Of a DNA stretch of 32,000 nucleotides, positions 16,943-17,824 are shown in pieces. Under the pieces are notes generated by a model. The model did no database searches. It saw only the letters and a program-made list of their open reading frames with translations, and was not told the origin of the DNA. The stretch lies in the NCBI GenBank assembly GCA_964510585.1, contig CAZECW010000157.1:21063-53062 (forward strand), given 5' to 3'. The stretch comes from an uncultured archaeon. GTDB lineage: Archaea; Asgardarchaeota; Jordiarchaeia; Jordiarchaeales; Jordiarchaeaceae. Within the stretch, counting starts at the first letter, position 1; each line of letters starts with the position of its first letter. The position numbers were made by a program, and so were the translations under genes.

Positions 16943-17824
16943 GTGGGCAGAAGATGGTTAAGTATGGGAGACGCAGATTATTATAAGCGTTTAACATTAG
17001 AAGCCAAACTGATTAAGCAAAAGTATAAGACGCTTGGAACCGGAAGGGAGGGAAAGCTCTCCAAGTGGTCAGGCTACATCACTGTCAGAAATAGCCCCTT
17101 ATTTATTTCAATTCAGATACCTGAAGGTTTTCCTAACAAGCCACCCATCATAAATGCTAGCGGTGTTCAAACTAATTTAAATGAAAAGTTAGATGTTCTC
17201 AAAAATTGGAGACAAGAATACAACGTAACAGATGTTATAGACGCTTTAAAAAAATACCTAGAAGAAAAAATAGATGCGGATAAGACTATGTCCAGAAGGT
17301 TAGCAGAGGAACTTCAAAGAATGAGAGAAAATTCACATTTACTTATGAGCGGATCAGAATATGTGTCTATTAGAGTCATGAGGGACACCCCAAGCCTTAG
17401 GGAATACAGATTAATGGTTGTCTTCCTAAAATACTCAAAACCAAGACTTAATGGAAAAGTTATCAGCATTAAACTAACGCTCCCAGAAGGATTTCCGATG
17501 GAGAAACCAAGAATTGAAATATCCAGCGGTAAAGAAGACATCGATTTGAATCTGGAAAACTATTTAGAGAATCTGCCACCTATAAGGGACTGGACTCCAG
17601 ACAGACACCTATTTGAAGTCGCATCATCCATTTTGGACTTTTTCAATAACTTTGCAATGGCAGTTTGCCCAATTTGCCTAAACAAAATTACCGCACAGGA
17701 ATATCACAGCACCATTAAATGTAGAAACCTCAGATGTCAGAGTTTGTATCACAAAAATTGCTTCGAAGGCTGGATAAGACAAGGATACAAAAGAGAATGC
17801 GTGTATTGTAACACCCCAATTTAG
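16943..17824 (+). CDS. Tandem UBC/UEV(RWD)-like domains + C4HC3 RING; FANCL-like E3 ligase architecture
   Basis: Two E2-fold repeats (RLxxE...IPEGFPNKPP...W and RRLAEE...LPEGFPMEKP...WTP) with no HPN or catalytic Cys. RING ligands C242,C245,C260,C265,H270,C273,C286,C289. Confidence 0.85.
   Translation: MGRRWLSMGDADYYKRLTLEAKLIKQKYKTLGTGREGKLSKWSGYITVRNSPLFISIQIPEGFPNKPPIINASGVQTNLNEKLDVLKNWRQEYNVTDVIDALKKYLEEKIDADKTMSRRLAEELQRMRENSHLLMSGSEYVSIRVMRDTPSLREYRLMVVFLKYSKPRLNGKVISIKLTLPEGFPMEKPRIEISSGKEDIDLNLENYLENLPPIRDWTPDRHLFEVASSILDFFNNFAMAVCPICLNKITAQEYHSTIKCRNLRCQSLYHKNCFEGWIRQGYKRECVYCNTPI

What the first reader, a model, noticed from the sequence alone, without database searches (positions are those of the whole stretch)
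16943..17824. FANCL-like E3 built from two inactive copies of the E2 fold plus a RING-variant
Seen: two Cys-less E2 folds followed by CPIC...CRNLRC-x4-H-x2-C-x3-W...ECVYCNTPI. The first repeat (YYKRLTLEAKLI...GKLSKWSGYI) aligns by eye with the neighbouring E2 (YWARLALEAQRI...GKLTHWRGII). Established: FANCL has E2-like and double-RWD folds plus a C4HC3 RING with C-x-N-x2-C spacing ending ECPYCxxPI, and pairs with UBE2T. Inference: a prokaryotic FANCL-type ligase that may have arisen by duplication of the local E2. Listerin-type RWD-RING is an alternative relative.
Basis: partly seen in the sequence, partly recalled or inferred. Interest (0 to 1): 0.78.

Follow-up and report, generated by a model that had tools for sequence, protein, structure and literature searches.

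The report
Archaeal RWD-RWD-RING ubiquitin ligase
An Asgard archaeon (Jordarchaeia) encodes, inside its ubiquitin gene cluster, a probable ubiquitin ligase made of two inactive E2-like folds and a zinc RING finger; its conserved core looks most like the tail of the eukaryotic ligase listerin, and FANCL resembles it mainly in overall layout.

Summary
ORF 16943-17824 (+) encodes two UBC-superfamily folds without cysteine, followed by a complete C4HC3 RING. It sits next to E1, E2, ubiquitin and a JAB protease, in an Asgard (Jordarchaeia/Freyarchaeia) genome.

The FANCL reading is only partly supported.
- **For FANCL:** it is the best whole-protein fold match. Foldseek lays the model's residues 4-293 along FANCL's URD and RING, and the RING hits Pfam FANCL_C below its cut-off.
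- **For listerin:** the conserved core (fold 2 plus RING) models confidently as one compact unit. By fold and by sequence profile its best eukaryotic match is listerin's C-terminal RWD-RING, then RNF25.
- **Against FANCL membership:** there is no ELF domain, and FANCL_d1, d2 and d3 give no hit. The neighbouring E2 is UBE2D-like rather than UBE2T-like.
- **Fold 1:** a 190-aa homologue in a complete Freyarchaeum genome lacks it.
- **E2 origin:** in a tree the local E2 groups with the genome's other catalytic E2, so a recent copy of it is not supported.

A homologous family with three or four such folds plus a RING is common in Promethearchaeota.

Most likely this is the operon's RING E3, with the RWD-like folds serving as docking modules.

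The scan reported this family before, on another genome, as "FANCL-like".

The parts
16943..17824 (+). Whole ORF (293 codons from GTG, plus stop). The likely true start is ATG 16964, giving 286 aa.
   Evidence: ORF list and translation. Homologues P0002 and P0003 start at the equivalent Met. An AT-rich TATA-like stretch at 16909-16918 lies upstream (its role is inferred).
16967..17278 (+). Fold 1 (aa 9-112). An inactive UBC-superfamily fold of UEV/RWD type, with an FPNKPP motif, no HPN loop and K82 at the catalytic Cys position.
   Evidence: Pfam UQ_con E 1.7e-6, RWD 5.1e-5, UEV 4e-3. VIA-align Z 11.6 to the TSG101 UEV domain and Z 10.6-11.3 to E2 and Mms2. 30% identity to the neighbouring E2. 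Motif alignment with Asgard UEV proteins. Missing in the 190-aa homologue P0016.
17279..17656 (+). Fold 2 (aa 113-238). An inactive UBC-superfamily fold with an FPMEKP motif and a helix where E2 enzymes have the active-site flap. It is present in every homologue, including the 190-aa forms that lack fold 1.
   Evidence: Core AF2 model, pLDDT 89, pTM 0.83. Z 12.4 to an E2 over 103 residues at rmsd 2.3. Many invariant columns. Profile matches run colinearly through the RWD and RING of listerin and of FANCL.
17657..17821 (+). C4HC3 RING finger (aa 239-293). Ligands are C242, C245, C260, C265, H270, C273, C286 and C289. The E2-contact positions I244 and W277 are conserved. Residue 290, just after the last Cys, is not Arg or Lys in any of the 12 full-length homologues aligned (N in P0001; D, N or G in the others).
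   Evidence: Translation. Invariant columns. Pfam zf-RING_2 26.1 bits and FANCL_C 19.6 bits, cut-off 27.3. PDB RING hits. The roles of the Ile and Trp positions come from established RING-E2 knowledge.
17862..19013 (-). E1 (ThiF family), convergent with the ligase gene.
   Evidence: Pfam ThiF E 1e-60. Same position in L003 and L005.
19043..19522 (-). Catalytic E2 of UBE2D/Ubc4 type.
   Evidence: Pfam UQ_con E 1.8e-33. Best PDB relatives are UbcH5 and Ubc4 at E about 4e-25.
19615..19860 (-). Ubiquitin (81 aa) ending in GGF, so it needs C-terminal trimming.
   Evidence: Pfam ubiquitin E 1.6e-11. Sequence.
20933..21697 (+). JAB/MPN (Rpn11-like) protease.
   Evidence: Pfam JAB E 5.7e-18. Conserved in L003 and L005.

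Best explanation
This is the modular RING E3 ligase of the Jordarchaeial ubiquitin operon.

The RING recruits the ubiquitin-charged E2, most likely the UBE2D-like enzyme encoded two genes away. Fold 2 is an RWD-like, catalytically dead UBC fold. It packs against the RING as one rigid unit and serves as the docking or positioning module, as the RWD of listerin does on the ribosome and the C-terminal lobe of the FANCL URD does on FANCD2/FANCI. Fold 1 is UEV-like and dispensable in one lineage. It adds a second binding surface, for ubiquitin or for a partner protein.

In evolutionary terms the protein belongs to an Asgard family of [UBC-like]n + C4HC3 RING proteins, with n = 1-2 in Jordarchaeia/Freyarchaeia and 3-4 in Promethearchaeota. 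The RWD-RING core of this family is remotely homologous to the C-terminal modules of listerin, FANCL and RNF25.

Shown here: the folds, the intact RING, the conserved neighbourhood and the remote homology. Inferred: E2 pairing, ligase activity and the docking role. The substrate is unknown.
For: - **Inactive UBC folds.** There is no Cys before residue 242, the HPN loop is deleted, and both folds carry a YPxxxP-type motif. Each domain reaches Z 11-12 to E2 or UEV structures.
- **Intact RING.** Eight invariant ligands plus invariant I244 and W277, with Pfam and PDB RING hits.
- **Compact core.** The core model has pLDDT 89 and pTM 0.83.
- **Listerin by fold.** Listerin is the best eukaryotic match in PDB (E 1e-5), in Swiss-Prot models (six of the first seven rows, then RNF25) and in the ESM Atlas (TM 0.56-0.59 over 132-139 residues spanning both domains).
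- **Listerin and FANCL by profile.** Listerin scores E 7e-8 and FANCL E 1.4e-4, both colinear through RWD and RING.
- **FANCL for the whole protein.** FANCL is the top match, and a protein-language-model search also ranks FANCL, RNF25-like and listerin clusters next after the Asgard clusters.
- **Homology to the Promethearchaeota family.** hhalign probability 98.9%, E 1.3e-17, and TM 0.71.
- **Conserved gene order.** SMC-AAA-(RING protease)-[this gene]-E1-E2-Ub-ModA-JAB is kept at 58% and 74% protein identity.
- **Precedent.** Archaeal Ub-E1-E2-RING-Rpn11 operons have been reconstituted in Caldiarchaeum (PMC5654768, PMC6043591).
Against: - No activity, E2 binding or substrate has been shown.
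- The position just after the last RING Cys, where many RINGs carry an E2~Ub-activating Arg or Lys, is N, D or G in the 12 full-length homologues aligned. Activity may therefore be weak or need a cofactor.
- The relative orientation of folds 1 and 2 is not predicted with confidence (full-length pTM 0.49).
- Sequence links to listerin and FANCL are weak when only Jordarchaeia/Freyarchaeia sequences are used (E 0.023 and 0.16).
- Two more RING proteins are encoded next door (15835-16059 and 16087-16809). Either of them could be the main E3 of the operon.
- The conserved gene order also includes an unrelated ModA-like gene, so neighbourhood alone is weak evidence among these fairly close relatives.
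Confidence: 0.68

Rival explanations
1. A true FANCL orthologue: a site-specific monoubiquitin ligase acting on chromatin or DNA-repair targets. Folds 1 and 2 would be the equivalent of the FANCL URD/DRWD, possibly serving the neighbouring SMC operon.
For: - FANCL is the top whole-protein Foldseek match. The model's residues 4-293 are laid along FANCL's URD and RING.
- FANCL_C is touched by 12 of 13 homologues, and this is the best FANCL_C hit in the genome.
- The C-x-N-x2-C-x4-H-x2-C-x3-W spacing is present and there is no Arg/Lys after the last Cys. The comparison with FANCL rests on memory.
- Consecutive fused UBC folds were described as specific to FANCL (PMC3173227).
- An SMC operon lies next to the ubiquitin genes in three genomes.
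Against: - No hits to FANCL_d1, d2 or d3, and no ELF domain.
- FANCL_C scores below its cut-off (19.6 against 27.3 bits).
- The conserved core matches listerin better in every test.
- Whole-protein TM-scores to FANCL are only 0.23-0.33.
- Fold 1 is absent in one lineage, which does not fit an integral two-lobed URD.
- The E2 is UBE2D-like.
Confidence: 0.1
2. A 'mini-listerin': the RWD-like fold docks on the large ribosomal subunit near the exit tunnel, and the RING ubiquitylates stalled nascent chains in an archaeal ribosome quality-control pathway together with the NEMF/Rqc2 homologue.
For: - Listerin's RWD-RING is the closest eukaryotic match to the conserved core, by sequence and by fold.
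- Listerin's RWD contacts eL22 and eL31 and positions the RING (PMC4321881).
- The genome encodes an NFACT/NEMF homologue.
- The neighbouring E2 is of the UBE2D type, the family reported to work with listerin (from memory).
Against: - The protein lacks listerin's N-terminal domain and HEAT repeats, which provide NEMF-dependent recruitment.
- NEMF homologues occur in most archaea and bacteria (the control rang in 11 of 14 genomes), so its presence says little.
- Pfam's listerin UBC_like model does not hit this protein.
- There is no ribosomal or translation gene in the conserved neighbourhood.
Confidence: 0.12
3. A UEV-RING fusion: the dead E2 folds bind ubiquitin, or the backside of the E2, as Mms2/Uev1 or TSG101 do. 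They would orient an acceptor ubiquitin so that the ligase builds chains or recognises already ubiquitylated proteins.
For: - Fold 1 matches the TSG101 UEV and Mms2/Uev1 at Z 10.6-11.6.
- The PDB profile hits include Plasmodium Uev1a (3e95_C) and a putative Plasmodium E2 (2q0v) that share the 'LKNW' motif.
- The fold-1 profile scores Asgard UEV-type proteins at 34-51 bits.
- The FANCL ELF domain binds ubiquitin (PMC4543658).
Against: - No binding has been shown.
- Fold 1 is dispensable in the 190-aa form.
- Fold 2 is the conserved one, and it is packed against the RING.
Confidence: 0.1

Closest known systems
Listerin (LTN1/Ltn1), C-terminal RWD-RING module
   Same: An RWD-like UBC-superfamily fold is followed directly by a C4HC3 RING with C-x2-C...C-x(2-4)-C-x4-H-x2-C-x3-W spacing (alignment). 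Listerin is the best profile match (E 7e-8) and the best fold match for the conserved core (TM 0.56-0.59 over both domains).
   Different: Listerin has about 1,500-1,800 residues, with an N-terminal NEMF/60S-binding domain and HEAT repeats. This protein has 286-293 residues and carries a second UBC-like fold instead. Pfam's listerin UBC_like model does not hit it.
FANCL (ELF + URD/DRWD + RING)
   Same: Two consecutive inactive UBC-superfamily folds are followed by a C4HC3 RING. FANCL is the best whole-protein fold match. There are weak FANCL_C hits and a colinear profile match through the C-terminal lobe of the URD and the RING (E 1.4e-4).
   Different: There is no ELF domain, and no sequence match to FANCL_d1, d2 or d3. 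The individual folds look more like E2 or UEV domains than like FANCL lobes. Fold 1 is optional, and the E2 partner is UBE2D-like. No FancD2 match was found, though that control rang nowhere, so the result is uninformative.
RNF25 and other eukaryotic RWD + RING ligases
   Same: A single RWD domain is followed by a RING. RNF25 appears in the fold searches after listerin and in the language-model search.
   Different: The RING subtype and linker differ, and the scores are lower than for listerin. RNF25 has a long C-terminal tail.
Promethearchaeota multi-RWD RING proteins (such as P0019, 620 aa; automatic name 'RWD domain-containing protein')
   Same: They are homologous over the last UBC-like fold plus RING: hhalign probability 98.9% and TM 0.71. 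All the folds lack Cys.
   Different: They have three or four UBC-like folds, long low-complexity linkers and extra Cys pairs in the zinc finger. The one locus examined is not in a ubiquitin operon.
Small RING finger E3 of the Caldiarchaeum ubiquitin operon
   Same: It is a RING protein encoded with Ub, E1, E2 and an Rpn11-like protease in an archaeon, and the cascade has been reconstituted in vitro (PMC5654768, PMC6043591).
   Different: That protein is a bare small RING without UBC-like domains. A counterpart of that kind also exists here, at 15835-16059.

Membership tests
RING-type E3 ligase | Eight cross-brace zinc ligands with RING spacing | tested here: met
   C242, C245, C260, C265, H270, C273, C286 and C289 are invariant in 16 homologues. 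Pfam zf-RING_2 scores 26.1-27.3 bits, at about the cut-off.
RING-type E3 ligase | Hydrophobic E2-contact residues (Ile after the first Cys, Trp after the sixth ligand) | tested here: met
   I244 and W277 are invariant. Their role is taken from established RING-E2 structures and was not tested here.
RING-type E3 ligase | Stimulates E2~Ub discharge or ubiquitin transfer | not testable with these tools
   Needs a biochemical assay.
Non-catalytic UBC superfamily (UEV/RWD) | UBC-type alpha/beta-meander fold with a YPxxxP-type motif but no catalytic Cys or HPN loop | tested here: met
   Z 11-12 to E2 and UEV structures for both domains. FPNKPP and FPMEKP motifs are present. K82 aligns with the E2 Cys and the HPN loop is deleted. 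There is no Cys in residues 1-241.
Non-catalytic UBC superfamily (UEV/RWD) | RWD subtype: a helix in place of the E2 beta-flap (criterion from PMC3173227) | tested here: met
   The models place short helices after strand 4 in both domains: 79-87 and 202-209 in the full-length model, and 93-98 in the core model. This rests on predictions only.
FANCL | C-terminal RING matching Pfam FANCL_C (PF11793) above its cut-off | tested here: inconclusive
   The window's protein scores 19.6 bits against a cut-off of 27.3, yet it is the best hit in the genome. 12 of 13 homologues hit at E up to 0.01, the best at 2e-6.
FANCL | Central two-lobed URD/DRWD (Pfam FANCL_d2 and FANCL_d3) | tested here: not met
   Neither model hits this ORF at E up to 10. 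At fold level Foldseek lays the two folds along FANCL 104-366, but TM is only 0.31. Fold 1 is absent in P0016.
FANCL | N-terminal ELF domain (Pfam FANCL_d1) | tested here: not met
   Only two UBC-like folds are present, and FANCL_d1 does not hit the ORF.
FANCL | Cognate UBE2T-type E2 and FANCD2/FANCI substrates | tested here: inconclusive
   The neighbouring E2 is closest to UBE2D/Ubc4, and no UBE2T is among the 60 best rows listed. The FancD2 model found nothing, but its control rang nowhere.
Listerin | C-terminal RWD-like domain directly followed by a C4HC3 RING | tested here: met
   The profile match is colinear through both domains, E 7e-8 and 0.023 with Jordarchaeia/Freyarchaeia sequences only. 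TM is 0.56-0.59 over both domains. Listerin is the top fold match in PDB and Swiss-Prot models.
Listerin | N-terminal 60S/NEMF-binding domain and long HEAT-repeat body | tested here: not met
   The protein has 286-293 aa, and all of it is accounted for by two UBC-like folds and the RING.

The most novel reading that the evidence does not exclude
The Asgard [UBC-like]n + C4HC3 RING family would be the prokaryotic source of the RWD-RING ligase module that eukaryotes later built into listerin, FANCL and RNF25. The compact Jordarchaeial protein would already do a listerin-like job: docking through its RWD-like fold on a large cellular machine (the ribosome, or the neighbouring SMC complex) and ubiquitylating what is stuck there.
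Probability: 0.15. Interest if true: 0.85.

Novelty: new variant of a known kind. Interest (0 to 1): 0.55.

Why it matters
RWD-RING ligases (listerin, FANCL, RNF25) run eukaryotic quality-control and DNA-repair pathways, and fused consecutive UBC folds were thought to be specific to FANCL (PMC3173227). [quoted passage not shown]

A compact archaeal version that sits inside a complete Ub-E1-E2-JAB operon gives two things:
- a tractable minimal system (four or five small proteins) for asking what the RWD fold contributes to a RING ligase;
- a concrete candidate ancestor for the ligase modules of listerin and FANCL, which bears on how much of the ubiquitin E3 repertoire predates eukaryotes.

If it is only a generic operon E3, it is a modest addition to the list of Asgard eukaryote-like proteins.

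Tried and rejected
- **Complex prediction.** Folds 1-2 (aa 1-238) with the operon's ubiquitin (aa 1-80) gave no verdict: score 0.29, under the mark of 0.34, and the controls were not run. It counts neither for nor against binding.
- **Pfam FANCL and listerin domain models.** FANCL_d1, d2 and d3 and the listerin UBC_like model, run against the whole genome at E up to 10, gave no hit on this ORF.
- **FancD2 model.** No hit, but the control rang in no genome, so the result is uninformative.
- **Single-sequence and Jordarchaeia/Freyarchaeia-only profile searches of PDB.** These mostly returned generic RING-H2 fingers and E2s. FANCL and listerin appeared only at E 0.02-1. The links became significant only after Promethearchaeota homologues were added.
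- **Exhaustive HMM search of 1.8 billion representatives.** Only 26 hits at E up to 1e-3. No full-length eukaryotic FANCL was recognised; the eukaryotic hits identified were one listerin fragment and generic RING proteins.
- **Tree of UBC-fold domains.** The relations among fold 1, fold 2, the UEV proteins and the E2s stay unresolved. The tree excludes only a recent copy of the local E2.
- **VIA-align second looks.** The lists fill with single-domain E2 and UEV structures and do not rank the multi-domain relatives.
- **Literature searches.** Asgard combined with FANCL, Fanconi, RWD or listerin, and Jordarchaeia combined with ubiquitin, found no description of this protein.
- **Apparent in-frame TAA stops in some Promethearchaeota matches.** Rejected as a feature. 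Those rows are the ones whose alignment runs to the last profile position, so they most likely read through the natural stop codon.
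Full report
**What is there.** ORF 16943-17824 (+) translates to 293 aa from GTG. Close homologues begin at the Met that corresponds to ATG 16964, so the product is probably 286 aa. Source names attached to homologues place it in the Asgard lineage Jordarchaeia/Freyarchaeia. The genome is 3.78 Mb and 96% complete.

The gene sits in a eukaryote-like ubiquitin cluster. On the minus strand are the E1 (17862-19013), the E2 (19043-19522) and ubiquitin ending in GGF (19615-19860). 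On the plus strand is a JAB/Rpn11-like protease (20933-21697). Upstream lie two further RING proteins and an AAA-SMC operon.

**Checking the observation.** The protein has no Cys before residue 242. It ends in a complete C4HC3 finger: C242-x2-C245, C260-x-N-x2-C265-x4-H270-x2-C273-x3-W277, C286-x2-C289-TPI. All eight ligands plus I244, N262 and W277 are invariant in 16 homologues.

Pfam gives weak UQ_con, RWD and UEV hits on residues 33-129, and zf-RING_2 and FANCL_C hits on the finger. An AF2 model (pLDDT 74.7) shows two alpha/beta-meander domains and a RING. Each domain superposes on E2 or UEV structures at Z 11-12, over 100-117 residues at rmsd 2.5-3.1.

Repeat 1 aligns with the neighbouring E2 at 30% identity, E 4e-9. 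K82 stands at the catalytic Cys position and the HPN loop is deleted. Both domains keep a YPxxxP-type motif. In the models both have a short helix where E2 enzymes have the active-site flap, which is the criterion for an RWD rather than a UBC fold (PMC3173227).

**How conserved is it?** Homologues of 55-88% identity occur in all five other genomes of the same genus that were sampled. The gene order ScpB-like / kleisin-like / SMC / AAA / RING protease / this gene / E1 / E2 / Ub / ModA-like / JAB is kept at 58% identity (L003) and at 74% identity in a complete Freyarchaeum genome (L005).

In that complete genome the protein has only 190 aa. It starts just before helix 1 of fold 2, and an HTH gene lies upstream with no remnant of fold 1. 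The conserved unit is therefore fold 2 plus the RING, and fold 1 is optional.

**A wider Asgard family.** An exhaustive HMM search found only 26 hits. Among them are proteins of 360-620 aa, one named as Promethearchaeota, with three or four Cys-less UBC-like folds and a C-terminal zinc finger. They are homologous to the Jordarchaeial core: hhalign probability 98.9%, E 1.3e-17, and TM 0.71 over 158 residues.

In a 301-genome sample of the phylum, strong core matches occur in the window's own genus (5 of 5 other genomes) and in family f9 (49 of 68 genomes matched at the E 1e-5 threshold, most of them strongly). Single genomes of two other families also match strongly. The one Promethearchaeota locus examined is not in a ubiquitin operon.

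**FANCL or listerin?**

With the whole protein, FANCL is the best Foldseek match in PDB (7kzp_L, E 4.7e-6; 9a0j_L) and in Swiss-Prot models (mouse FANCL, E 1.2e-8). The model's residues 4-293 are laid along FANCL 104-366, that is, its URD plus RING. Listerin, UBE2Q and BRE follow. The TM-scores are low (0.23-0.33), so this reflects the order of domains and not a shared rigid shape. A language-model search gives the same list: Promethearchaeota RWD clusters, then FANCL, then RNF25-like, then listerin. FANCL_C is touched by 12 of 13 homologues, but the window's protein scores 19.6 bits against a cut-off of 27.3.

With the conserved core the picture changes. Its model is confident and compact (pLDDT 89, pTM 0.83). 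Its best matches are:
- listerin in PDB (9ofv_e, E 1e-5; 8aaf_e);
- listerin in six of the first seven Swiss-Prot rows, then RNF25, with FANCL absent from the 30 rows shown;
- among eukaryotic clusters in the ESM Atlas, listerin clusters at TM 0.56-0.59 over 132-139 residues spanning both domains.

A profile of the core from both Asgard families hits yeast and human listerin at E 7e-8, in one stretch through RWD and RING. It hits chicken FANCL at E 1.4e-4, likewise colinear. Profiles from Jordarchaeia/Freyarchaeia alone give 0.023 for listerin and 0.16 for FANCL. A Promethearchaeota-only profile gives 0.0021 for listerin.

The alignment shows that listerin's finger has the same C4HC3 spacing, including the Trp. 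That spacing is therefore not a FANCL hallmark. FANCL_d1, d2 and d3 and the listerin UBC_like model do not hit the ORF. The neighbouring E2 is closest to UBE2D/Ubc4, and no UBE2T is among the 60 best rows listed.

I conclude that the RWD-RING core is a remote homologue of the module shared by listerin, FANCL and RNF25, and that it is nearest to listerin. FANCL resembles it mainly in having two UBC-superfamily folds before the RING. Membership in either eukaryotic family fails on defining parts: there is no ELF or URD sequence match for FANCL, and no N-terminal domain or HEAT body for listerin.

**Did fold 1 arise from the local E2?** Within the genome, the fold-1 profile scores the neighbouring E2 (27.4 bits), a UEV-type protein on contig C4 (25.0) and a second E2 on C60 (22.4) about equally. 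It scores Asgard UEV-type proteins from elsewhere higher, at 34-51 bits.

In a maximum-likelihood tree the local E2 and its orthologues group with the other catalytic E2 (support 100/98). Fold 1, fold 2, the UEV proteins and the E2s form an unresolved polytomy. Descent from some E2-like ancestor is plain. A copy of the local E2 is not supported.

**How it probably works.** By analogy with reconstituted archaeal cascades (PMC5654768, PMC6043591), the JAB protease would trim the GGF tail of ubiquitin, the E1 and E2 would charge it, and this protein's RING would bind E2~Ub through I244 and W277. Fold 2, fixed to the RING, would dock the ligase on its target. Listerin's RWD does this on eL22 and eL31 (PMC4321881), and the C-terminal lobe of the FANCL URD does it on FANCD2/FANCI (PMC3173227). 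Fold 1 may bind ubiquitin or a partner, as UEV domains and the FANCL ELF do (PMC4543658).

The position just after the last Cys is never Arg or Lys in the 12 full-length homologues aligned (N, D or G). This hints at low intrinsic activation of E2~Ub. These steps are inferred; none has been shown. A complex prediction of folds 1-2 with ubiquitin gave no verdict.

**Novelty.** I found no paper in the held library that describes this protein. [quoted passage not shown] Automatic annotation already calls the Promethearchaeota relatives 'RWD domain-containing'.

This scan has already reported the same family on another genome as a FANCL-like ligase (e1-4830715). My tests agree on the architecture, move the nearest relative of the core to listerin, and show that fold 1 is dispensable. 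I class it as a new variant of a known kind, the RWD-RING E3 ligases, and as moderately interesting.

Noticed in passing
window 19520-19576 (- strand): The E2 frame has no ATG, GTG or TTG before helix 1. The frame is open only back to an ACG that directly follows an in-frame TAA, and that TAA ends a 17-codon mini-ORF starting at ATG 19576. This could mean non-canonical initiation, read-through or a sequencing error.
   Followed up: no
L005:7345-8573 (Freyarchaeum genome CP147778.1): The homologue has only 190 aa (fold 2 + RING). An ArsR-type HTH gene occupies the space upstream, and no remnant of fold 1 is visible in any frame.
   Followed up: partly
P0019, P0022, P0030, P0024, P0023, P0026; locus L004:8001-9863: Proteins of 360-620 aa (P0019 is named Promethearchaeota) with three or four Cys-less UBC/RWD-like folds, Pro/Gln/Glu-rich linkers and a C-terminal finger that carries extra Cys pairs. 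P0019 is not in a ubiquitin operon. The three-fold forms (358-403 aa) have the same domain count as FANCL.
   Followed up: partly
genome contig C4:2507-3313 (+): A 269-aa protein with an HPN-containing but Cys-less UBC fold (Gln at the Cys position) and a long coiled-coil tail. It looks like an ESCRT-I Vps23/TSG101-type UEV protein.
   Followed up: no
window 16087-16809 (-) and 15835-16059 (+): Two more RING proteins lie next door. One is fused to an HExxH (M48/SprT-like) protease domain and the other is a 74-aa bare RING. Both are conserved in L005, and the protease-RING gene also in L003.
   Followed up: no
P0028 (255 aa), P0035 (167 aa): These proteins have no UBC-like domain, yet their RINGs pass the Pfam FANCL_C cut-off (30.4 and 28.0 bits). 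The FANCL_C-type finger therefore also occurs in other contexts. Their origin was not looked up.
   Followed up: no
window 20178-20867 (-): A ModA-like periplasmic binding-protein gene sits between ubiquitin and the JAB gene, and it keeps that place in L003 and L005. Conserved gene order in these relatives therefore does not by itself imply shared function.
   Followed up: no
window 17862-19013 (-), E1 residues 312-366: The C-terminus of the E1 gives a faint hit to the ubiquitin fold (E 0.047), perhaps a ubiquitin-fold domain of the kind that recruits E2 in eukaryotic E1 enzymes.
   Followed up: no
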